A stretch of 64,000 nt of DNA from Lingula anatina (taxonomy: Eukaryota; Animalia; Brachiopoda): positions 59,250,788 to 59,314,787 of the forward strand of contig CM120640.1 in the NCBI GenBank assembly GCA_051362555.1, written 5' to 3'. Positions 44,088 through 61,088 of this stretch are shown one piece after another. Positions within the stretch are counted from its first letter, which is position 1. Every line of letters starts with the position of its first letter. The notes beneath the pieces were generated by a model. It had not been told where the DNA came from. It was given only the letters and a program-made list of their open reading frames with translations, and ran no database searches. Made by a program: the position numbers and the translations under genes.

Positions 44088-45540
44088 CAGTACGTACCTA
44101 TACTCCCCCGCACCGATACTCCCCCACTTCTTTACATCCCCGCACCGATACTCCCCCGCACCGATACTCCCCCGCTTCTTTACATCCCCGCACCGATACT
44201 CCCCCGCACCGATACTCCCTCGTACCGATACTCCCCCGCTTCTTTACATCCCCGCACCGATACTCCCCCGCACTGATACTCCCGCGTACCGATACTCCGC
44301 AAAAACACTACTCCCCCAAGGCATAGATTCCCTTGGCTTTGTAAACCCCATTCGTAATTTACAACACTTTCTGTAATGCTTTTTTTTCAAGATGCACCAC
44401 CCTCTTGGGACCCAGATTTGACAAATTTTATTCGAAATATATTGGGAAAAATAAAGAACGTTACACGAAGTCAATCTCAGACTTAGTGTGCAGCTTGACA
44501 GTACGTAGGTCTACAGCTCTTCCTTGTGATTTTTGAATGTTTTTGCAAAATTAATTTCGTTCTCCTACTGTACTCAGTAGTTTTTTTATTAACTTAAGGC
44601 AAAGTTAGTTTTAATCTAAGATAACGCAGCTATGTCTTTTTTTCAGGCAACGATGAATTCGTAAAATTATTAATTAAGTAATAAAAAAGAAGTGCTAAAG
44701 CGCTTCGTTTTCTGTCTTTTTCCTCCAACCTTCTTTTCTGCTCTTTAAGCTTCTTTCCCTTGTCTTTTGAATCTGAATTAGATTAGAATCTGAATTGAGC
44801 AAAATTCAAAAATTTTGAAAATTGTTGCACAACGAAATTGTCGAGACACGAGCATGCGTCGTGAGCACGCCTTTTATACTCGCAGTCCCGTCGTGTTTTC
44901 GATTTTGTTCGTTATAGATGTGAGGGCGTGCGCCGTACTCAACACGCAAAGGGCTCTTTCTCCTTCATTTCTTGCGGCGTGCATCTTGGACCAGGCAAGT
45001 CTCACTTGCAAACCAATCGCAAACTCCTTACAAAGGGAACAAATTACGCTTACGGCCTCGCTGTTCGCAGATTATTCGTAGAATCTATTGGAAATGTTCA
45101 ATATCCTCCGTACGTGCTTACATACGTGCGAACTCGAAATTTCGCATAAAGGACTTGCGTGGTACATGAGATTCTCCGCAAAATTTGGACTTAAACGGGT
45201 CGTAGATTTTGATCCACTTACCTAGACTGACCCTAACCTGTATAATTAAATGGAGGGTTGACTCTGTTACTCGATCCTCAGTTTCGGCAAAATTGCATAG
45301 GGGGAGTAATGATGAGGGGGAGTATCGGTGCGGGGGAGTAACGGTGCGGGGAAACAACAACGCTGGGGAGTATCGGTGCGGGGGAGTAACGGTGCGCGTA
45401 TAACGGCAATTTTACAGGGGGTTTATCGATGCGGGGATCTATCGGTGTGGGGGCGTATCGATGTGCATAATGCAAAAATTTACTAAGGGGGAGTATCGGT
45501 GCGGGGGAGTAACGGTGCGGGGGAGTATCGGCATGACCCC
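44088..45540. mobile_element. Foldback-type DNA element with inverted arms made of 16-bp tandem repeats
   Basis: Left arm (ATACTCCCCCGCACCG)n at 44100-44300; inverted copies GGGGAGTATCGGTGCGGG at 45300-45400 and 45487-45535; TATA on both flanks as a tentative TSD. ORFs in this interval are repeat artefacts. Confidence 0.65.
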
Positions 45541-47028: not shown

Positions 47029-48531
47029 ATGAGTATGGAGTCATTGAAGATTTTGTATATGGCAGTGGCAGTTTTCCTCCTCACTACCCAAGCACCCAGT
47101 ATCTCTGCAGCTGGTCTTCAAAAGATATCTGTTAATGCTGATGGATGGTTTGTGGACCCCAATGGGCGTGTGATGCTTTTCCATGGCATTAACATGGTGC
47201 AGAAAGGATTTCCCTGGTATCCAGCAACTCTACTAAACAAAACCAAACTAAGAGACTACAAAAATTGGGGATTCAATGCAGTAAGATTAGGTATGATGTG
47301 GAGTGGACTCGAACCACAAGAAGGTGTCTTCAACACGACATATGCAAATATTATGTCTTCGATTGTTGACACTTTGGAAAACTATGGCATGTACTCTCTG
47401 CTTGACATGCATCAAGATGTCATGTCTTCCAAATTTCAGTCATATGATGGGATTCCATTATGGTTGGTAAATAAACTTCCCAACCCCTCTCAAGATGAAG
47501 CTTTTCCGTGGCCCTTTAAGAATATAGGCTCGTGGGAAGATGGATATCTAGCTAAAGCCACTGGCATGGCATTTCAGGGATTATACAGTAACAGAAGTAA
47601 TGCATTGGGCTACTTTTCACGATTTTGGCAGACCACTGCTAAGATATTTAAGGGCAGGGGTGGTGTTCTTGGCTATGAACTTATCAATGAACCTTGGGCA
47701 GGAGACATATGGAGCAATCTGAGTTTACTATTACCAGGCAATGCAGGTAGTCGTAATCTAATGCCAATGTACAAAGTGATAAATAAAGCCATTCGTGCAG
47801 TGGATGATGACACAATTATATTTTACGAGCCAGTAACTTGGGGTGTTATCTACAAAAATGATTATCATCACTTTGGAACTGGATTTAACATGGTACCTGG
47901 AGGAAGTGACTACAAGAACCGCAGTGCTTTGTCATATCATTATTACTGTTGGTTTGATAAACCTGCAGATGAACCCTTTCCCTACCCTGAATGGAAAAGA
48001 ATAGCCTGTGATGACTTCTGGGGTCCTTTTGTATTTCTTGCTGTCCGTGGTGATAGAGAAAAAATAGGAGGAGGTTCCTTCCTCACTGAGTTTGGTATTT
48101 GTAGCACAGATGGTAATAACAAAACAGAGGGGACAGTAGAATGTGAGTCCACTATGCAGGGGGCAGATGCCGCACTCCAGTCTTGGACATACTGGGACTC
48201 TTCCTTTTATTATTCCAATGGAAGTGTAAACTGGAATCAAGTGAGGTCCTTTTCGCGTGTCTACCCAAGAGCCACTGCTGGCACTCCCAAGTATTTAAAC
48301 TTCAATCTCACTTCTTTAATATTTACCTATAGATATGTTCATTTAGTTGCAATACAGCAACCCACAGAAATATTTGTGCCCAAATTTCACTACCCAAAAG
48401 GTTTCACTGTAGAATTGAAGGGCCAGCTGAAGTGGACCTTTGATATAAATGAATGTGTGATCTATGTGACTCCAGTAGACAGCAAACTCAAGTATATTAA
48501 TGCTCAGGTGATTATAAAACCCAAAACTTAA
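47029..48531 (+). CDS. Endoglycoceramidase (glycoside hydrolase family 5), secreted or lysosomal; single coding exon
   Basis: 500-aa uninterrupted ORF with a hydrophobic signal peptide and GH5/EGCase motifs HGINMVQK, WGFNAVRLG, LLDMHQD, GYELINEPWAG (acid/base Glu), LSYHYYC, FLTEFG (nucleophile Glu), SWTYW and SRVYPRATAG. Confidence 0.93.
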   Translation: MSMESLKILYMAVAVFLLTTQAPSISAAGLQKISVNADGWFVDPNGRVMLFHGINMVQKGFPWYPATLLNKTKLRDYKNWGFNAVRLGMMWSGLEPQEGVFNTTYANIMSSIVDTLENYGMYSLLDMHQDVMSSKFQSYDGIPLWLVNKLPNPSQDEAFPWPFKNIGSWEDGYLAKATGMAFQGLYSNRSNALGYFSRFWQTTAKIFKGRGGVLGYELINEPWAGDIWSNLSLLLPGNAGSRNLMPMYKVINKAIRAVDDDTIIFYEPVTWGVIYKNDYHHFGTGFNMVPGGSDYKNRSALSYHYYCWFDKPADEPFPYPEWKRIACDDFWGPFVFLAVRGDREKIGGGSFLTEFGICSTDGNNKTEGTVECESTMQGADAALQSWTYWDSSFYYSNGSVNWNQVRSFSRVYPRATAGTPKYLNFNLTSLIFTYRYVHLVAIQQPTEIFVPKFHYPKGFTVELKGQLKWTFDINECVIYVTPVDSKLKYINAQVIIKPKT

Positions 48532-49030: not shown

Positions 49031-50089
49031 CAAAAATGCTTTCAATATGGTTTAGTATTTTTAACTTCAGCATAAAGAAAAATTCTTTAAAAGCAGCCTG
49101 AGAATGCATTGCTTCACTCTTAGCCATGTCCCTTGCTAATTGTTAATTTGATATATATGTATATATATATGCAAAGGTGCTGTGGAATATTTATTTTTGT
49201 TGTATCAAATATAATTGTTGATATGTTTTATGTGTTGATATATATCTTTATATATACCAAATTAATGACTGAAATTGCTTAAAGCATGTCTTATCCATTG
49301 GAATGGTTACAGTATAAAAATTGATTTTCCCTGAAAAAATTGTGACAGTTTTTCTGCAAATATACCATGGTTTGTTTATTATATTTTTGAGAAATGAAAA
49401 CAAAATAAAGTGATACTGTAATTACAGAATGCCTTTTAAAATTATTGATGCCTTATGTCTTTTTTTTTTCTTTTTTTCCAAATTGTATTTGATAGCAGTT
49501 ACCGTAATCTTGATTTTGTTCCAATTCTTGAGATGTGGACTAGAAACACAAAAGTAAAATTTTAAAACTACTGACATTTATTATAAGATTGTTTTGCAAG
49601 TTTACTTAAGGAAGTGTTCATCATACGCTAATAAGCGATTTATGTTGCACATTTTTGTGTAGACGATATTGCCTCTACGTAAACGGCATCATTTCCATTT
49701 GCTTATTTGGAACTTTTTTAAAAAGATATATAAATAAGTTGATCAGTAAGAACAAGCTTATTACAGTTTTCTTAATTATATCTTAAATATAATTTCTTAA
49801 CAGAGATTGAATGAAGTATTTTTCTTAAATATTAGACCATTACAATTGTGTGATTGATTCAACATCCAAAACGGGAAAATGTGTCCCCGTAATATGTATT
49901 ATGATTACGCAAGGTCCCCCAAGTAGCCTCGAATGCGTTGGATGTGACATGACAAACTCCCCCACTCCCTGCAAACACACTTCATACGGGACACTGTTAT
50001 GGCAGCTTGCATGTGAACTAAACAGCAGCGGCATCTCCTACTGCATACCTGAAAAACTGCAGAAGAACTCGGCGAATGCCGTTTTTTAG

Positions 50090-50133
50090 ACGTTTGTGGT
50101 GTCGCAGATTATCCCTTATCGAGTATTCATTAA
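50090..50133 (+). other. Putative non-coding first exon of XPNPEP1
   Basis: CpG-rich patch ending in taag|gtaggc donor; acceptor ttcag| at 50873, 10 nt before the ATG. Confidence 0.45.
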
Positions 50134-50883
50134 GGTAGGCATTTTACCAACGACGACTTTTTAGAGTAACTCGAGATGAACTTTCTTAGGCCGAACCACC
50201 TGCATTGTTTACTGTACCTTTATGGCGTGACTACTACCGTTGTGTGGCCTTGCAGTCAGTCAGTAGGTCCCTTCTTTTCGTATTTGGGCTACAGTAAGTA
50301 GGTAGCATTAAAGGACTAAATTGAATCAATGCTGTATTATTTGTTAAGAAAGTTTTCTTTTTTTGCAAAATTTAACTTTGCTGGATAATCAGCTTTGCAT
50401 TGAAATTATTTTAACTGCATACTCATTGATTTCGATTTAAAAGTGTTGACAATCAACATTAAAAAATTGCAGGTCTTCTGCCATTTTAAGTGGTCATGAC
50501 CAGTCATAACCATGTCTGCACATGACAGTTAAAAATTAGGATTACTAAAAACCAAATGTTTTTGATGGTCTGAGCATAAAAACGCTACGAGACCATGCCA
50601 TAATTGGTTTTGACAACATTTTAATGGCAAATTATTCAATACTTTTTATAATGTAGATAAAATATAAAACAATAATTGTGATTGTTTTAACATATGTGAT
50701 TAATGAAGCAGTGTATCACCCTCCACACACCCCTCAACTGATTTTATGAATAAAGGCTCAGTGCATTATTTGTGAATTTTTTTTACACTGAAGATTTTTA
50801 CATATTAATAACTTGGATGTATATAGAGGGCTGGTATAACACTGTTGTTTTAAAAGATGTTCATTAGTTTCAGGTTTTGCTCC

Positions 50884-53800
50884 ATGTCTGCCAAGAATAC
50901 CTCATTAATTCTTCATAAGTTGCGTGGCTTGATGAAAAACAGTCACTATGTCACGGAGGAACTCCAGGCATATATTGTACCTTCAGAAGATGCTCACCAG
51001 GTATTATGTGCTTTTTGGTATTTTTCTTTAAATCATTTAAAGCAAAGTGTGTTTTTAAATATATTTGTAAGTAAATGTCAGTGTTTTAGTATGCTTTGTG
51101 CTTTTGATGACAAGTATACATATACTACTAAGAAGTGTATCATGCGATATATATATATATATATATATGGGTCAAAACACGGTATTTGAAATGTCTCTGA
51201 CGGGACATTTTAGAGACAATTTTAAAAATTACAGTTGGTAAACGATCCACATGGTTTCTTTTAAATACATTTTTATTTAGCTGGACCATAAAGGATTATG
51301 TAAAACAAGCAGCTAATTTGTATTGAAATTAATGTGGGAATGACAATCACTTAAAGGTCGGTCTCTGACGGGACATTTTTGACCCCTGTATTTTTTTACC
51401 AAAACTCCAATGCAAAATTCTCTTTGAAATTTCATTTAATCAAGACTTTTGTGATTCATATTGCAAGATAAAAGTCTTGGGAAGCAATTAATGCACAAAC
51501 AGGCCAGTTTTGTTTACTTTCCTTGGCAGCATGGGCTGTTGAGTGTAAAAAGTCACTGTCTCTGACGGGACGTCTCTGACGGGACACTTTTGGGCACTAT
51601 TGAAAAATCTTAGAAAAGAGGTTTAAAAAGCCACATTTTTGTATCTAATGAATCTTACTTGATGGTTATTGCAAAATAGCATTTCTGTACATTAGAAAAA
51701 TCACCAGATGCAATATGTTTAGAATATTAATTAATTATCATGATCGACACAGCGATAAGGCACAGTATAAAATTTTCACGTAATCCACTGTCCATTACTG
51801 AAGTTCATGATGACATAATTCAATATCAATCAACATTTTCCATGATAGTTCACATAATAAATCCTGTTTTTCAATTAGTCTTAGAACATATATCTTTTCT
51901 GCACTTTAGAGATTTTTTCAACCAGTCACATTAACAGGTGATGGAAACAAGTATATATATATATATTTTTTGTCTTTGAAAATAGTAAATATCAGTAACA
52001 TTTTTTTAAAGTTTATTTTTTATTTTTTCCACACAGAGCAGACAAATGAAATGAATCTTTCTTTCATTTAAAAGAGAAATTTGAAATCCATTATCAGTAT
52101 TTTTAAATATTAAAAAATATGCATATTTAATGTGTGTATTTGAAACCTTTCAGAGTGAGTACATAGCTCCTTGTGACTGTAGAAGAGAGTTTGTTAGTGG
52201 ATTCTCAGGGTCTGCAGGTAAGGCAAGTCAAGGTTATATACAACTTGGGAGTTCATATATTTTCTCAAAACTGAAGTTATTTAAAAAGGTGATTGGTTAT
52301 CTGAAGCTTATGTTTATTTGTGAGAAAACAGTTGAATTTGTTTCAGATTTGCTACTAGCTGGAGCTTTGGCTGTCACCTTCATTATTACAAGAATCTTGA
52401 GGTCACATAAAACGATCTATATTTGGTTGTACTAAGCTTCCATTATGGAAAAAGAAAAGAAATTTACGTTATAACAAGAACATGTTGAGATGCTAAGTAT
52501 TATATTTCAAACTCCTTTTGGTGAGAAGTGTGACTTCTTTGTCCTATCACTGAAAAAATGATAATCTATAATGAAAAGGACTGGTTAGAAAATTTGCAGA
52601 GGGCTATCAATTGCAACAAAAAATTTAGCAAGTATATTATTCATTTCATTTGTCTGTTTGTAGTCAGATTTTTGTCTGGTGATAAAATAGTTGACAAAGT
52701 GGTATTAGAAAACAAAATTCAATGCACTGCATATTGCATGATTTCAGTAAGACCATATTGTTTTCACTGTAGGATCAGCAGTTATTGTGCAAAATAAAGC
52801 AGCAATGTGGACGGATGGACGCTACTTCCTGCAGGCAGAGAGACAAATGGATGACAACTGGACTCTGATGAAGCATGGTTAGTTACCTGGTCTTGAATGT
52901 TCAGCTACATCATTTAAGCAAAGTTGTTTGACAGCTACCTAAACCATTATGTTTTGCTAAAAGTTTCAAAATGAATAAGTATTTTAAAGTTGTTAAAACT
53001 TAAATGAGTCTGCTTTTTGTCTTTGCAGGCCTTCCTGAAACTCCAACTCAAGGAGATTGGTTATCAAAGGTAATAACCATTTGTCCTCATATGCATTAAC
53101 TGTAAGTTTGTATGTTAGTTGCCCAATTGATCTTGAGGTAATGAGAACCAATGGAGGATATTAGTCATTTTCTTGGTTTCTTGTACATATATTGGGATTA
53201 GTTTATTGAAATGTAATTGTGTGAATCCAAGTAGGAGGGTTTGAGAACTTCATTTAATAGTTACTATTTCCTTATTAATTACTTTATTTATTTATTTATT
53301 TGTTTATTTTATTTATTTATTTTATTTATTATTATTATTATTTTATTATTTTTTTGGTGCCCTTAAAGATGGAATAATATACTTTTTAAACAAAGTGTAA
53401 TTTTAGTTTGATGCAATACATGGTTAAATTTTTACTATATGCTTGCAGGTGTTGCCACCAAGTGGCAAAGTTGGAGTTGATCCATTCCTGCTGTCTGCTG
53501 GTTAGAATCTATTACATATTTTATTTTGTATATTTATATTTGTAAATCATGGGATTTTAGATTTACACGAAGTACCAGAGATTTCTTGCAATTATATATT
53601 TAGATACACATAACCTTACATTTTCACAAAAATAAGGAACAAAAAGAATGACAAAGCTTTACCATTGTTAAGTGATATCTTCAATGCCTAGAAACATCAG
53701 GGATAGGCAAACTACTGTTCAGTAATACTTTCAGAGAGATGGAAAGAGTTGTCTAAGACTTTGGAATCAAATGGTCATATGTTGGTGCCGGTGGCTCAAA

Positions 53801-56800
53801 ATTTAGTGGACATTGCATGGAATGACCGACCACCTCCACCTAACAACCCTCTCATTGTGCAGCCTCTGAAATACACAGGTATAATAGTTCTGACTAGTGC
53901 TTAGAATTTTCTTATTTAAATGTAAGTGTATCAAAAATGTTAAATTTTGTAATTTTGGTATTGACAATTTTTTCCTAAACACTTATGTTAAAAAACTATT
54001 TAGGTTCTACTTGGCAGGACAAAGTTAGACAAGTAAGAGCCAAAATGAAGGAGAAAAAGGTTGGAATGCTGGTTGTTACAGCTTTGGATGAAATTGCTTG
54101 TAAGTAATCTGCAACTTTTTTAAATTGTAGAATTTTGCTTAATAATTAAAAATCATTATTCTCTTTTATACAAAGTTTCTGATTTTTAAAAGAGCAGGAG
54201 AGAATATAGAGATTTATTATTTGAAAGAAGAAACTCAGTTTTAATAAGGTTTTATGGGTACGTGGGGGGTATTGAGCAGTTTTTACCGTCAAATAGGATG
54301 GCAGAGTGAAACTAATTTGCTAAATATTAGGAAACATTCTGTCACCTACTTCACCATATTGTTTTTATGATTCAGGGCTGTTTAATTTGAGGGGATCAGA
54401 TATTGCCTACAACCCCGTGTTCTTTTCCTATGCCATTGTAAAGGAAGACATGGTCGGGTAAGCTAGCATATACCTTCTTGTTCTGTCATGTATGAAAGAT
54501 AGTTGTAGTAATGTCATTGATTGTAAATCTGTATGATGTCATTTAGTTTTGAGGAATATTTGTTTCTTGTGGAATTAATTCAACATGTTAAAATAGATAA
54601 GATCTTTAGATATTTGATTTAGATACTTTGAACTGTGTTGGTGAGCTTGGAATGCTACTTTCAGTTGAATGCCAGAATTAACCAACATCATTAATTTATT
54701 AGGCTGAAGACAACATCACTGAGTATATGAACTAAAGTGTATAGGCCACCTACATTGAATGTCATCATCTCTGTTTTATTTTTAAAGATTATGGATAGAT
54801 GAAACCAAGCTAGATGCAGCAGTTCTTCATCACCTCAATGCCGCACAACAGAATGGAGATGGCAGTGACATAACAGTTACTCTTTATCCCTATGACTCCA
54901 TAAAAGACTATATCAGTGCGTTAATGGAAGGCATAACAGGGAAAGTGTGGGTGAGTGATCATACCATGATATAGATTGATACATATTCAAATTGACTCAT
55001 TTTTTAAAGTTTTCTGCATAGACTTATGATAAAACAATTGACTATTGACTGCCAATTGTATATGCAGTCAATAGTCTATAACTATAATTAGGCAAATATA
55101 GTTTGGTGTTATCTTTTTCAGATAAGCAATAAATCTAGTTATGCCTTGGTCAGTTTGGTTCCGCAGGTAGGTCCTTACAAATTGTCTGTTTTAATTTTTA
55201 GTGTGTGTGTACATAGCATTACATTGTTGGGTATATAACGTAATGTCATATAGACTTTATGAAGTCAGTGGTATGAAAGCCTTTTAGTTTGATTTCTGCT
55301 GTATGATAGATATATTTTTTGTACGTTTTCTAGTAATTGCATGTAAATAACCTTTTTTTTTATCAACTCAAAGTGGTTATTTTAAAGAGCTACAACATTT
55401 TTATATACACGTAGAACAATCATTATGGAGAATTGAGCCCTATAGCAGAGATGAAAAGCAAAAAGAACAGCACAGAGATAGATTGTATGAAAAGAGCTCA
55501 TGTCAAAGATGCTGTTACACTATGTGAATATTTTGCTTGGTTGGAGAAGGAGGTAGGTAGCCTAGTGAAAATGTTTCAGTTGACAAAGAAAAAGGTACGG
55601 TCAAAATACTTGTGATTTCTAGACATAATCTTTAATTTTTATTTTGGAGAATGGCCATTAAAACAATAAAATTAGCTATTTATTTCTTTTGATCATAGTG
55701 AGGTTAAAATTCTTTAGGAAGCTGTCAAAGATTAGTAATTTTAAAGATTTTTTGCACTGTTCTTTCCATTAAAAGGTTCCAAAAGGCAATGTTTCAGAGA
55801 TGTCAGCTGCTGAAAAACTAGAATTGATTAAGAGGTATGTTCTATATCACATAAACTAAGTGTAAAAGCCTAAAGAAATGATGAAAAAATTCTAATAAAC
55901 AAAAAAAAAATCCTGAATATCAAAGAGAAAAAGATTTTTTTTGTATTATTTGCCTAATATTTTTCTGCAACTCTCTTTATTTTAGGCAGCAGGAAGATTA
56001 TGTGAGTTTAAGTTTTTCCACCATTTCCAGTTCAGGTCCTAACGGTGCTGTGATACACTATAGGTAAGTGGGGGGTATTGAGCAGTTTTTACTGTCAAAT
56101 AGGATAGCAGAGTGAAACTAATTTGCTAAATAATATGAAGTCTTCTTCATAATCAGACAGAACATACAGCATTGAGCTGATGAAAAACAATGTAAATACA
56201 TACATTCTTCTCTAATTATAAAAGCTTTAGATTTTTAAGTGGTTTAAAGCAGATTTAAAAAAAACATTTTGACTAATAGTTCAAAAGTGTTTTCAAATGG
56301 GATGCGAAAAAGTATTAGTTAAACTAAATCTTTGTTAATGATGCCGGATTTTCAGACCAGTCCCTGACACCAACCGTCCTCTCTCCACTGATGAGATTTA
56401 TCTGTGCGACTCTGGGGCACAGTACAGGTATGCCAGACTTGAGATTTTTTGCAATAAATGTCTCCTTATCTAGGTTTGTCTGATTTTTCCTATTTCTTTT
56501 TTCTTTTGTGTTTTCTTGTCCAACAAAAGTCCTTCCAAAGAGACATCTCGTGAGTTGTCAGTGGATGAAATGTACCTTTGTGACTCTGGAGCTCAGTACA
56601 GGTAGAAAACCATCATCTTAATGATAATATAGTTATGCTAGCAACATATGTAGCATATCAATTTGGAGAAGATTGCCTTTCGAAATCGCATATCCCAAAT
56701 CATATACCAAACCAAAATCTGAAAATTTAGAAATTATATTGTATGATGTTCAAATGTATGCATATGTGTGTCTGTCTGGTAGGCCTGATATTACGTTTGC

Positions 56801-59800
56801 AGTATGATGTATGTTTTATATACAATAGGGATGGCACAACTGATGTCACCAGGACTATGCATTTTGGTAAACCAACGGCATTCCAACAGGAGTGTTTCAC
56901 TAGAGTTCTTCAGGGCCATATAGCTTTAGCACTTGTGATATTTCCAAATAAAACCAAAGGTATGGTACTTTCACAAAACAGTTTTAGAAGTACCGTGCAT
57001 ACTGTTTTTTAGTTGCATCTTGATATATTTGATTAAATGTATATAGATTTGAGTTTCAATGGTTAACTTTAAAAAATTCATACCGTGAGTTGTCTTATGG
57101 GTCACAATTGCTTTTGTCTCGATCATAGATATTTATACACATTGTTATCATAAATATGTGGTGTATAGTATAGGTACTAATACAATGGAAAGTGTCATGA
57201 ATTTGAACTGTTGAAACATCAAAGCTCTTAATTCATGCATTCTCCTACAGGTCATATGTTGGACACCCTGGCTAGGACGGCATTATGGGAAGTTGGGCAA
57301 GATTATCTTCATGGAACAGGACATGGAGTAGGAGCTTTCCTGAATGTCCATGAAGGTATGTCACTGAAAACCTAACTTTATTCTGATATCAGCATAATGA
57401 AAGTAATAGATTCAGTTGGATGCTTAGGGAAAGAATATACTGGATGTCTTTTCCACTGGTGGCCTTATGTCTTAAAGGGACGAAGAGGAATGATGATGAT
57501 AATTTTCCTCTGTTAATACTCTTGGAAACAATATTAATGGTTTAGTACATATCCATCCTTTATTCATGTTCTGTCACTCTCTTGGAAAAAGATTTTTACA
57601 AATTAATGGCATTATTAACTTTCATTAGGCCCCTGTGGAATCAGCTACAAGTCCTTCACAGACTGCCCACTTCAGGAGGGGATGATTCTCAGCAATGGTA
57701 TGTAAAGGGGACCATTGTGACTTGGTTAAAAGGACTTTTAAGTATTAAAATAGTCCTTTAAGTCTATTGACATTCAACACATTAAGTTTATTGAAATTCA
57801 ACACAAAGAAAAAGATGGTCTAAAAGGTTAAAGTGATGGATAATAATACAGCATATACTATATAAGACTGCATGCACAAACTAACATTAAAAATGACGGG
57901 GCTGCTTGGCTTGGGTGTTATCAATTTTATTATCATCCAAAAAAATTAATCTCTCAATTTGAATTTTTTTCTTCAGAGCCTGGTTACTATGAAGATGGAC
58001 AATTTGGAATAAGGATAGAAAATTTGTTTTTAGTCAAGCAAGCAGAGACAAAGGTATACAGTGATATTGAACTTTAAATATGGAACACTAAATCTGAAGC
58101 AATGCATTTGATCTTAGGCAAGTTTTCAAATATTTGTGCTTATTATGATGAAACTACACCCCTTACTGTTTTGACAACCATTAATTAGTGATCTAATTTT
58201 AAACTTAAAAGTTTTGACATTTGTAACATCTAAGTTTTTTTCCTTAGAAAATTCTAAAAATACATATAAACTAGCTGATACCAGTCACATCAATTATTTA
58301 ACCATGATAAGAAATTATTATACATGATTTATAGAATCTCTTTATATACTATATTCTGTGTGAAAGTCTGATTTCCACACTTGCCCTGAGTCAAAGATTT
58401 TGTGACTTTAACAAAAATTTTCTGGAACAACCGGGCTCTAGAGAATGCCACATAGGTCCATAAAGCGATGACGTCATAGCATAATTACACAAAACAATGG
58501 CACATCTAATGCAATATGGAAGTTAGACAATGAAACCTTATCACCATATCAAAACAATAAATATTTATTTTTTAAGTGTTTTACATCAATAAATACAGTT
58601 AACAGTATTTGGTGTAATTTATAAATGATGCTAAATATTTTATCATGGTAATTGAGACCTTTTATTTGTTTGTGACTTGCATTTTCAACCAACATCCAGT
58701 AAAAAAACAATAAAATTAAAAACCCACCTCCCTATCCTGCCTTCAGGTGCAAAAAGAACTATGAACAATCATTTTATATTAATATATATTATAATAATTA
58801 TTATAATTATTATTATTATTTTTAATTTTAAAAAATGGGACTGAGTGGGAATTGTAGCCACTGCAGCGTGTTTGGCAGCCAAGGATGTTATCCACTGTAC
58901 AACCAAATCCTGCTGTCTGTTGTAGTGTTGTTGATTTTATATGATACCTGTCACACGGACCGAAACTTTACGGAAATTGCTTAAGGCTGGAAAATGCCTT
59001 TAAAATATGCTTTTAACAGTTATAATCAAATTCAAAGTCCATCCACTTTCTTCCCACTTCCATAAGGTATTGCTAACACCTGTCAGTTGTCAACAGATTA
59101 TTGTAGTTTGGGAGAAAAACCTGACAAGGAAACTTTGGCTTATCTGCTGTTACTATATAGATATCTGACTGTCTGAAAAAGTTATTGCTTGAATTGATTG
59201 TTAGACCAACATGTTGTCCCACACAGCATAATATCTGGAAATGTATAGAACCCACTATGTTATATACTAACAAAATACATTTTATACATGCAATTTGAAT
59301 TTGCTAGGAAAAGGGGTTTTCTCAGGAAATTTCTCAAATCAAATTTCTCAAAAAAAAAAAAAAAAAAAAATTAAAGTAAATCAAATTGAAGTAGATGATA
59401 AACCTGGTATTTAAAATATTTTACATACCTGCTTTCTTACCAAACTGATGAGTCATATTTTAAGTCATAGGGGCCATTCAGAATAGATGATCCGAGTACT
59501 AACTGATTTGCTGACTGAATATGGCCGTCCCTACTTCAAAAGTGATGCCACTGATTCCCGATGGTCTCCCCGCCTCAGTTAGTACTCAGATCATCTATTC
59601 TGAATGGCCACATAGTTTTTAGACTACATGAAATCCAAAAATATTCTGGAATGGGTTCAGTGCCAGCTTTATATTAGTCAAAACATTGAACTAGAATTGT
59701 TTGACACTCCACACTAGCAGCTGTAGGAATTTTTGATGTCTGTTACATAAATCTTTTTATTATTCTATCAGCACAACTTCAAGAACAAAGGATTCCTAAC

Positions 59801-60278
59801 TTTTGAACCTCTGACTCTGGTTCCAATACAAACAAAGATGCTGGTGCCATCCATGCTGTCACAAAAAGAGGTGAACAGTTTACTTATACAAAATTGAAAG
59901 GCACGAGTTGAATGTCTCACATAATGGGACTTTTTACTCAGTTGTACATCAGGATTTGAAGTTTAAATGCAGCATAAATGTAAAGGCATTAGTTTTTTTT
60001 TTTAACTATTAAAATTTTGTTGTCATTACACTTTAAATTCATTTGTAACTGAATTACCAGTGACATCAAAGTAGTTACATATTACAATATTACCAAATTT
60101 TTTATGTTGTGTGTCATTAAAAACAAGTTGTATTCACAATGTTTCTTCATATTCCCAGATTGACTGGCTGAATGCATACCACCTGTTATGCCGGGAAGTG
60201 GTGGGGCAAGAGCTGAAGGACCAAGATAAGCAAGAGGCATACGAGTGGATGATGAGGGAGACTGAACCATTGGGTTAA
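50884..60278 (+). CDS. XPNPEP1: Xaa-Pro aminopeptidase 1 (cytosolic aminopeptidase P, M24B)
   Basis: Exons 50884-51000, 52154-52217, 52773-52877, 53029-53069, 53449-53500, 53735-53878, 54004-54099, 54376-54457, 54788-54950, 55122-55166, 55415-55552, 55776-55834, 55986-56063, [56356-56427 or 56530-56601], 56829-56959, 57251-57355, 57629-57697, 57977-58053, 59772-59870, 60159-60278. Motifs [64 protein letters not shown]; all phases consistent; no signal peptide or GPI tail. Confidence 0.97.
51169..51951. mobile_element. Probable DNA transposon remnant inserted in (TA)n, with subterminal-type direct repeats
   Basis: Four copies of GTCTCTGACGGGAC (51193, 51361, 51558, 51572); bounded by (TA)n tracts on both sides. 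Confidence 0.45.
54262..54326 (+). repeat. 65-nt intronic hairpin element, copy 1
   Basis: 63/65 identical to 56068-56132; folds as a stem-loop. Confidence 0.85.
56068..56132 (+). repeat. 65-nt intronic hairpin element, copy 2, overlapping the 5' splice site upstream of the alternative exons
   Basis: 63/65 identical to 54262-54326. Confidence 0.85.
56356..56427 (+). CDS. XPNPEP1: XPNPEP1 alternative exon A ([23 protein letters not shown])
   Basis: 72 nt, ttcag| acceptor, |gtatgc donor, phase 2-2, open frame. Confidence 0.9.
56530..56601 (+). CDS. XPNPEP1: XPNPEP1 alternative exon B ([23 protein letters not shown]), paralogous to exon A
   Basis: 72 nt, long polypyrimidine tract plus aaaag| acceptor, |gtagaa donor, phase 2-2, open frame, synonymous divergence from exon A in the shared YLCDSGAQY codons. 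Confidence 0.85.
59470..59611. mobile_element. Short Harbinger-like MITE in an XPNPEP1 intron
   Basis: About 36-bp near-perfect TIRs (GGCCATTCAGAATAGATGATC.GAGTACTAACTGA) and ATA target-site duplication. Confidence 0.8.
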
Positions 60279-61088
60279 ACTGATGTCCTGTTCACTTTAG
60301 TTGGACTTTCATTTACATTCACAGACAGTTACGGCTTTTAAGAACTTCAAATGGCCAGGAAAGAAGACGTAAAAATATAATTTTTTTCTTAAATTTTACA
60401 AGACTATTTTTAAATTTACTGTTACTGACAGTGTTTCTAAAAGTGAATGGTCTATTGATAGTTGGCAAATTTAATATTACTATAAATAGTACATATCATT
60501 TTAAAGACATCCCAACTTACTTTCAACACTGCCATTTTTGTCAATGATATTTATCCTGTATGTGAAACCACTTGTTGCTGTCTGATTGTGCATTTCGTTA
60601 ATTATTCTGGTAGAGTATATATACTAAATTTGAAATTGTCAATTTTTCAACAGTTTATCACAACCAGAGAATAGAACTTCTATAGCATTGGTGTATTTAG
60701 ACATATTTTTTAAATATTCATTTTATTCTATCATGCACAAATGTTATGGAAAATATACATTACAAAACTGCAATGATTTATGGTTTTATTAAAATTGACA
60801 TACAGCTGACATCTTGATCACAGGTACAAATACTTCCCAATCACATACATTTCTAAAAATCATTAATTTTCTTGATACTCAGCATTCAAACTGATCTCTC
60901 TCTCTCTCTCTCTCTGACAGATACAATTGTAGTGCTTAAATGATCCTTTCCTCTTTTTAAATTGAAATATTACCATTTCACTAGATATCTCAAACTACAG
61001 AGATCTTTGATAAGCCTTCCTATGTTTGTGTCAGGACAGTAGTTCAAAATTGGGGGGAAAACTTTTTTCATAATTTGGACTAAATAAT

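What the first reader, a model, noticed from the sequence alone, without database searches (positions are those of the whole stretch)
56356..56601. Duplicated, probably mutually exclusive exons at the aminopeptidase P active site
Seen in sequence: two 72-nt phase 2-2 exons 102 nt apart both encode ...DE(I/M)YLCDSGAQY but differ in their N-terminal halves ([12 protein letters not shown] versus [12 protein letters not shown]), and the shared residues use different synonymous codons, which suggests selection on both. Established knowledge: the Asp of DSGxQY is a metal ligand in M24B peptidases, so including both exons would duplicate a catalytic strand. As recalled, exon A resembles vertebrate XPNPEP1 (PVPETNRTLSLDEVYL) and exon B resembles XPNPEP2 (SPTKELNRKLSSDEMYL). 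Inference: one gene makes two active-site-adjacent isoforms. The putative branch point near 56483 is only about 55 nt from the exon A donor, which could sterically block A-B joining.
Basis: partly seen in the sequence, partly recalled or inferred. Interest (0 to 1): 0.75.

Follow-up and report, generated by a model that had tools for sequence, protein, structure and literature searches.

The report
Swappable loop exon in aminopeptidase P
A lamp-shell (Lingula) gene for an enzyme that trims proline-containing peptides splices in one or the other of two old copies of an exon carrying a metal-binding residue, in shares that flip between RNA samples, and because the copies differ mainly in a loop predicted to lie on the surface, the swap likely fine-tunes the enzyme rather than changing what it cuts.

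Summary
Confirmed. Exons A (56356-56427) and B (56530-56601) are 72-nt, phase 2-2 tandem duplicates in the cytosolic aminopeptidase P gene (XPNPEP1 type) of Lingula anatina. In 4 RNA runs both are spliced in, and no A-to-B or skip-both joint was listed. B's share is 19, 14, 100 and 88% by run. RefSeq already holds both proteins (X1 = A, X2 = B); no paper was found. All catalytic residues are shared. The 8 differences lie between substrate-binding His418 and metal ligand Asp438; none matches an inhibitor contact listed for the worm enzyme. dN 0.34 against dS 2.85 shows an old, selected pair. B does resemble vertebrate XPNPEP2 (11 of 15 residues to an unbiased representative; at most 8 in 83 XPNPEP1 segments). 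However, both exons keep the cytosolic-type Cys, and no second version appeared in 19 clusters from other animals. A lineage-restricted duplication with convergence is therefore more likely than an ancient shared switch. A steric block is plausible but marginal (branch-point candidate 56 nt from the donor). The scan noted similar swaps in other Lingula enzymes and an arthropod aminopeptidase, not this gene.

The parts
56356..56427 (+). Exon A, 72 nt, phase 2-2; residues 420-444 of RefSeq X1; carries metal ligand Asp438
   Evidence: (joints upstream-to-A 23/23/0/2 reads, A-to-downstream 38/60/0/0)
56530..56601 (+). Exon B, 72 nt, phase 2-2; same region of RefSeq X2; differs from A at R420S V422S P423K D424E N426S P428E T431V I434M
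   Evidence: (upstream-to-B 7/2/5/7 reads, B-to-downstream 7/12/6/8)
56428..56529 (+). 102-nt intron between A and B: shortest of the gene's 20 introns from the ATG exon on, with the longest A-free run (29 nt against 6-19) and the most pyrimidines before the acceptor (34 of 40 against 16-29); no joint across it listed
56480..56484 (+). Candidate branch point of exon B (CTGAT, A at 56483; inferred). A looser candidate lies 41 nt from the A donor
   Evidence: not mapped experimentally
55986..56063 (+). Shared upstream exon; encodes substrate-binding His418 (human His395) and the first two bases of codon 420
56829..56959 (+). Shared downstream exon; encodes the second metal ligand Asp449 (human Asp426)
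50874..60278 (+). Host gene from the ATG exon to the stop: cytosolic aminopeptidase P (XPNPEP1 type), 21 exons counting A and B
   Evidence: match to RefSeq; tree; fold
50076..50134 (+). Upstream in-frame ATG in exon 1 giving a 23-25 aa Arg-rich extension (in RefSeq X1-X3); possible mitochondrial presequence, inferred

Best explanation
An exon of the Lingula cytosolic aminopeptidase P gene exists in two old tandem copies that are spliced in one at a time, in shares that differ strongly between RNA samples, giving two enzymes that keep every catalytic residue and likely differ only in fine tuning through a loop predicted to lie on the surface. Shown: the two copies, their exclusive use, the sample differences, purifying selection on the catalytic half, and an identical predicted fold. 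Inferred: (1) the duplication happened inside the cytosolic gene, after the split from the membrane-bound paralogue and probably in the brachiopod line; (2) co-inclusion is blocked mainly because B's branch point sits close to A's donor in a 102-nt intron, since 72-nt exons would not shift the frame; (3) regulators choose between the two acceptors by tissue or stage; (4) the swapped loop (420-434) follows directly on substrate-binding His418, which is mobile in a homologue, so it probably alters turnover, stability or a surface contact and not the Xaa-Pro bond specificity; (5) B's likeness to vertebrate XPNPEP2 is convergence on a loop state that recurs in the family.
For:: four alternative joints with GT..AG ends; no A-to-B or skip-both joint listed in 4 of 4 runs. 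A 61, 83, 0, 2 reads against B 14, 14, 11, 15 (pooled Fisher p 1.7e-15; reads are not independent); dN 0.34, dS 2.85 over 23 codons; codons 14-23 dN 0.05, dS 1.53; both isoforms model at pLDDT about 94 with the same helices and strands; 420-433 is loop. B model matches human 3CTZ (TM 0.92, E 1.9e-95); ligands align to human with a constant offset of 23; no listed apstatin contact lies between His392 and Asp413 of the C. elegans enzyme, and residues 394, 396, 398 have patchy side chains and are outside the dimer interface. His551 of the Plasmodium enzyme shifts on ligand binding; the host gene groups with cytosolic enzymes (98-99 SH-like support). Cys at segment position 18 in A, B and 39 of 44 invertebrate-type cytosolic segments, against 0 of 20 sequences picked by a hydrophobic end (17 of the 20 fall in the membrane-type clade, P0411 does not, and all but the two vertebrate ones and the Mytilus one are unnamed); no two versions attributable to one gene in 19 clusters from other animals; the V12+M15 pair of B recurs in Cys-type enzymes of an aphid and early-branching fungi; unusual intron architecture.
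Against: No enzyme assay, and no contact map of the loop was available, so the functional step is inference. The B-to-XPNPEP2 likeness is strong: at the 8 A/B differences the unbiased representative P0314 matches B at 5 and A at 0, and Electrophorus XPNPEP2 matches B at 6 and A at 0; a column-independent null gives about 1e-5. That is more than plain chance predicts. The best branch-point candidate is 56 nt from the donor, outside the <50-nt criterion. Tissue or stage of the runs is unknown, and the A-rich runs come from one study while the B-rich runs come from two others, so study, population or library could confound the switch. Depth is low in X4 and X7 (64 and 47 reads laid). Absence in other animals rests on database proteins, not on genomes, and no other brachiopod or phoronid was identified.
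Confidence: 0.58

Rival explanations
1. The two copies are biochemically interchangeable. Both are kept because each has become the one spliced in certain tissues or stages (a regulatory division of labour), and the loop differences are drift in a tolerant surface region.
For: The loop is the variable part across the family: 7 of the 8 differing columns have a top residue under 55% in 109 unique homologous segments. All catalytic residues are identical. dN in codons 1-13 is high (0.69). Models are the same.
Against: B's residues S420, S426 and E428 are rare among those 109 segments (0-1%), and B matches vertebrate XPNPEP2 beyond a simple null, which suggests a selected alternative state.
Confidence: 0.24
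2. The A/B pair is older than the split of cytosolic and membrane-bound aminopeptidase P. The membrane-bound paralogue kept B, most cytosolic genes kept A, and Lingula kept both (splice isoform separation).
For: B is 11 of 15 identical to vertebrate XPNPEP2-like P0314, above all 83 unbiased XPNPEP1 segments (max 8); the closest segments to A among 289 are mostly vertebrate XPNPEP1. Two mollusc-type membrane enzymes share V12 and M15 with B. Synonymous sites are near saturation. The model has precedent: 11 such events in vertebrates (PMC4494069 abstract).
Against: Both exons carry the cytosolic-type Cys18 (0 of 20 in the hydrophobic-end set). B is only middling against Mytilus membrane enzyme (8 of 15; 41 of 83 cytosolic segments do as well), and most membrane-clade representatives do not resemble B (2-7 of 15). 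The two clades split before bilaterians in the tree, so many independent losses would be needed. No second version in 19 clusters. Only 2 independent vertebrate XPNPEP2 sequences were in hand, one of them found by a B-centred query.
Confidence: 0.1
3. Exon B's 5' half was copied by gene conversion from a membrane-type aminopeptidase P paralogue of Lingula, giving a hybrid exon.
For: B's 5' half resembles membrane-type sequences while its 3' half is cytosolic-type.
Against: A search centred on the B region (best 120 of 1715 shown) listed no other protein named Lingula, although membrane-type proteins with 15-20 of 25 matches were listed. No Lingula genome was held to look for a donor.
Confidence: 0.06
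4. One copy is an artefact: an assembly duplication of alleles, or a decaying pseudo-exon.
For: A has no joint to the downstream exon in X4 and X7.
Against: X1 and X3 each use both copies; copies differ at 28 of 72 nt with strong synonymous bias; reads match at 95-100%; RefSeq holds both.
Confidence: 0.02

Closest known systems
Tandem-duplicated (homologous) mutually exclusive exons of animals (PMC5740500, PMC7954323, PMC9741552; passages seen)
   Same: Equal-length, same-phase duplicates used one at a time; catalytic core kept, variable residues predicted on the surface; use differs by sample.
   Different: XPNPEP was not found in the searched main texts or in the supplements held as text. 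Tissue specificity and protein-level expression were not shown here.
Human cytosolic X-prolyl aminopeptidase XPNPEP1 (PDB 3CTZ; peptidase family M24, Pfam PF00557/PF16188/PF16189/PF01321)
   Same: 60% identity and TM 0.92 in the fold match; all metal ligands and shell histidines align; exon A matches residues 398-420.
   Different: No alternative version of this segment was seen in vertebrate database proteins examined (one lamprey cluster of 9, and cluster representatives).
Vertebrate membrane-bound XPNPEP2 (Electrophorus XP_035387799.1; unnamed representative P0314)
   Same: Exon B's first 15 residues match at 13 and 11 positions.
   Different: The Lingula gene lies in the cytosolic clade, has no signal peptide or hydrophobic tail in RefSeq, and B keeps the cytosolic-type Cys and Ala of the catalytic strand.
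Splice isoform separation after gene duplication (PMC4494069, abstract and outline seen)
   Same: One gene holds two exon versions that each resemble a different paralogue elsewhere.
   Different: Shared ancestry of B with XPNPEP2 is not shown; the catalytic-strand markers and the distribution argue against it.

Membership tests
Homologous mutually exclusive exons | Adjacent exons of homologous sequence, same length and phase, with intact splice sites | tested here: met
Homologous mutually exclusive exons | Each exon is joined to both flanking exons in RNA | tested here: met
   all four joints in X1 and X3
Homologous mutually exclusive exons | No co-inclusion and no skipping of both | tested here: met
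   neither joint listed in 4 of 4 runs (listing needs 3 reads at 2 starts; A donor had 38 and 60 reads to the downstream exon, so a few percent co-inclusion cannot be excluded)
Homologous mutually exclusive exons | Both copies under purifying selection | tested here: met
   dN 0.34, dS 2.85 between the copies (23 codons only; no orthologous exon pairs)
Sterically enforced mutually exclusive exons | Branch point under about 50 nt from the upstream donor | tested here: inconclusive
   best candidate at 56 nt, a looser one at 41 nt; no A between 66 and 94 nt; not mapped
Frameshift/NMD-enforced mutually exclusive exons | Exon length not divisible by three | tested here: not met
   72 nt each; co-inclusion keeps the frame
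Docking-site/selector RNA pairing | Competing conserved pairings around the variants | tested here: inconclusive
   no long perfect inverted repeat; donor-to-branch hairpin z -1.29; no relatives to test covariation
Cytosolic aminopeptidase P (XPNPEP1/APP1) | Three-domain M24 fold with ligands D, D, H, E, E and shell histidines | tested here: met
Cytosolic aminopeptidase P (XPNPEP1/APP1) | Groups with cytosolic enzymes; no signal peptide or GPI tail | tested here: met
   (tree without the swapped segment, FastTree SH-like support)
Cytosolic aminopeptidase P (XPNPEP1/APP1) | Cleaves Xaa-Pro bonds; homodimer | not testable with these tools
   needs an assay
Splice isoform separation (ancestral A/B split between XPNPEP1 and XPNPEP2) | Exon B is orthologous to the XPNPEP2 exon and the pair predates the gene duplication | tested here: inconclusive
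   loop half favours it; catalytic half and distribution do not

The most novel reading that the evidence does not exclude
The loop after the substrate histidine of aminopeptidase P has two functional states that vertebrates split between the cytosolic (XPNPEP1) and membrane-bound (XPNPEP2) genes, and Lingula switches between them by splicing inside one cytosolic gene, by ancient inheritance or by convergence. The two isoforms would then be a natural 8-residue swap that tests what makes the two human enzymes differ.
Probability: 0.2. Interest if true: 0.65.

Novelty: new member of a known kind. Interest (0 to 1): 0.38.

Why it matters
It is a clean, RNA-confirmed case of exon swapping across a metal-ligand strand of an enzyme for which no such switch was found in print. 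It gives two natural variants that differ at 8 residues, and one of them resembles the human membrane-bound paralogue, so the pair can test whether this loop matters for activity. The kind of event is well known, both proteins are already in RefSeq, and no catalytic residue changes, which limits the surprise.

Tried and rejected
No whole genome is held, so no search for Lingula paralogues and no genomic search for duplicate exons was possible. The run search listed no indexed RNA holder; 9 same-species raw-read runs were offered and 4 of 9 were laid. Only 55392-58001 was covered, so the 5' extension and 3' end have no RNA test. An alternative signal-peptide or GPI exon was considered: none appears in the 3 RefSeq isoforms, but it was not tested by RNA. 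A hairpin pairing the A donor with bases next to the branch candidate is not stronger than shuffles (z -1.29, 24 of 200 as good). Rfam: 0 matches in 49800-61000 at E 1 or less. Metagenome scan: 1 locus at 52% identity, not examined further. Atlas search with Electrophorus XPNPEP2 gave cluster names only. The IQ-TREE run did not finish; FastTree was used. One search stopped after 4 of 8 planned references because P0307 did not fit the pattern. No complex prediction was run.

Full report
Observation. The window shows two 72-nt exons, A at 56356-56427 and B at 56530-56601, each between AG and GT, both phase 2-2, 102 nt apart. They differ at 28 of 72 bases. Of 23 whole codons, 14 encode the same residue and 9 of these use another synonymous codon. 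A Nei-Gojobori count gives dN 0.34 and dS 2.85; for codons 14-23, dN 0.05 and dS 1.53; for codons 1-13, dN 0.69 with saturated dS (23 codons only). The pair is old, and the catalytic half is under purifying selection.

Host gene. The downstream exon matched a RefSeq protein of Lingula anatina at 100%. Its cluster has 3 members: X1 and X3 carry A, X2 carries B, and X1 and X2 differ only at R420S, V422S, P423K, D424E, N426S, P428E, T431V and I434M. My exon map translates to 618 residues identical to the ends of X1 and X2. In a FastTree tree of 51 proteins, built without the swapped segment, Lingula groups with cytosolic enzymes, and vertebrate XPNPEP2 and the mollusc membrane-type enzymes fall in the other main clade (99 SH-like support on both sides, midpoint root). 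The rows were chosen by me: 29 named or characterised proteins and 22 representatives with a hydrophobic end or related features.

RNA test. Four of 9 offered runs were laid on 55392-58001. Reads per joint in X1/X3/X4/X7: upstream-to-A 23/23/0/2, upstream-to-B 7/2/5/7, A-to-downstream 38/60/0/0, B-to-downstream 7/12/6/8. No A-to-B and no skip-both joint was listed; listing needs 3 reads at 2 starts, so a few percent co-inclusion is not excluded. B's share is 19, 14, 100 and 88% (pooled Fisher p 1.7e-15, but mates are not independent). X1 and X3 belong to one study and X4 and X7 to two others; tissue and stage are unknown, and X7 carries more sequence differences, so the switch is confounded with study and population. 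The intron before A has some depth in all 4 runs and the A-B intron in X7 (3 reads), while most other introns have none; this fits slow splicing of the cassette (inference).

Mechanism of exclusion. The exons are multiples of three, so co-inclusion would keep the frame and decay cannot enforce exclusion. The A-B intron is the shortest of 20, has the longest A-free run (29 nt against 6-19) and the most pyrimidines before its acceptor (34 of 40 against 16-29). Its only close branch-point match has the A at 56483, 56 nt from the A donor; a looser match is at 41 nt. PMC5740500 (passages) uses under 50 nt for steric interference, found in 9% of human clusters. A steric block is plausible but marginal. 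No convincing RNA pairing was found.

Protein consequence. Exon A aligns to human XPNPEP1 residues 398-420, so its Asp is human Asp415, a metal ligand (PMC5774706, passages). Lingula H418, D438, D449, H508, H512, H521, E546 and E560 map to the human active-site residues with a constant offset of 23. AlphaFold2 models of both isoforms reach pLDDT about 94 with the same helices and strands; 420-433 is loop and 434-439 the strand bearing D438. The B model matches 3CTZ at TM 0.92. In the C. elegans enzyme no listed apstatin contact lies between His392 and Asp413, and residues 394, 396 and 398 have patchy side chains outside the dimer interface (PMC4404410, passages; PMC10377022, passages and table). 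The substrate histidine is mobile in the Plasmodium enzyme (PMC13100289, passages). I had no coordinates, so surface exposure and any effect on His418 are inferred. This matches the general pattern that variable residues of such exons are exposed (PMC7954323, passages).

Is B an XPNPEP2-like exon? For: its first 15 residues match the unnamed representative P0314, which groups with Electrophorus XPNPEP2 at 100 support, at 11 positions; none of 83 unique segments from the whole-protein search reaches that (max 8). Among 87 representatives with a parsable segment, P0314 is the only one for which B beats all 83. At the 8 A/B differences P0314 matches B at 5 and A at 0, Electrophorus B at 6 and A at 0; column-independent nulls give about 1e-5, an overstatement because columns covary and the test was chosen after the fact. 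Ten of the 12 closest segments to A among 289 are named or listed among vertebrate XPNPEP1 hits, with one unnamed and one nemertean. Against: A and B both keep Cys at position 18, as do 39 of 44 invertebrate-type cytosolic segments and 0 of 20 hydrophobic-end sequences. B is middling against the Mytilus membrane enzyme. B's V12+M15 pair recurs in Cys-type enzymes of an aphid and early-branching fungi, found by a B-centred search, though in 0 of the 83 unbiased segments. Only two independent vertebrate XPNPEP2 sequences were in hand, and Electrophorus was found by the B-centred query.

Distribution. Members of 20 clusters were listed; one was a single Electrophorus protein. In the other 19, 56 of 57 and 52 of 52 printed members carried the segment. 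Differences followed species, contigs or single-residue alleles; no gene showed two versions. They cover a nemertean, bivalves, amphioxus, scorpions, ticks, locusts, lampreys, Hydra and a soft coral. Three large clusters were listed only in part (15 of 89, 15 of 20, 15 of 48). This is absence in database proteins, not in genomes, and no other brachiopod was identified. One Mytilus membrane-type gene model carries a tandem extra copy of the upstream exon and half of this one.

Literature. No paper held both XPNPEP1 and 'mutually exclusive exon' (0 papers); listings showed none on this switch by title or abstract start. XPNPEP terms were absent from the main texts of PMC5740500, PMC7954323 and PMC9741552 and from the 10, 6 and 1 supplements held as text; other supplements may exist that I could not see, and most subscription papers are not searched. 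PMC4494069 was seen as abstract and outline.

Verdict. A real, expressed, selected pair of mutually exclusive exons in Lingula XPNPEP1: a new member of a known kind, already present as RefSeq isoforms. Confidence in mutual exclusion is about 0.97; in the full reading (local duplication, steric block, fine tuning by a surface loop) about 0.58. The open point worth following is B's likeness to vertebrate XPNPEP2.

Noticed in passing
window 50076-50134 and 50868-50883: An upstream in-frame ATG gives a 23-25 aa extension with 5 Arg and one acidic residue, modelled as disordered; two acceptors 6 nt apart give RefSeq X1 and X3. It looks like a mitochondrial presequence, so the enzyme may be dually targeted.
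   Followed up: partly
window 54252-54345 and 56058-56150: A roughly 90-nt direct repeat in two introns of the gene; the second copy spans the donor of the exon upstream of A, the first has a donor-like start. Only these 2 copies in the window; no Rfam match.
   Followed up: partly
window 56064-56355 and 56428-56529: Unspliced reads cover the intron before exon A in all 4 runs and the A-B intron in X7, whereas most other introns have none.
   Followed up: partly
P0193 and P0444 against P0276 (Mytilus coruscus, one contig): Models of a membrane-type aminopeptidase P differ by a tandem extra copy of the upstream exon plus the first half of this exon; possibly an independent duplication in the paralogue, or a gene-model error.
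   Followed up: partly
P0194 (Pneumocystis oryctolagi): The same segment occurs twice in identical tandem form; likely an assembly or annotation artefact.
   Followed up: no
window about 47030-48530, + strand: A long intronless-looking coding stretch upstream of the gene, starting with a hydrophobic leader; by eye a glycoside hydrolase such as endoglycoceramidase (recalled resemblance, not tested).
   Followed up: no
window about 44100-44300 and 45300-45530: Short tandem repeats in opposite orientation flank about 1 kb, like the ends of a non-autonomous DNA transposon (seen).
   Followed up: no
P0058, P0066, P0069 (ticks), P0063 (scorpion), P0146 (Lineus): Long isoforms of cytosolic aminopeptidase P with N-terminal additions; the tick ones carry Pfam PF04500.
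   Followed up: no
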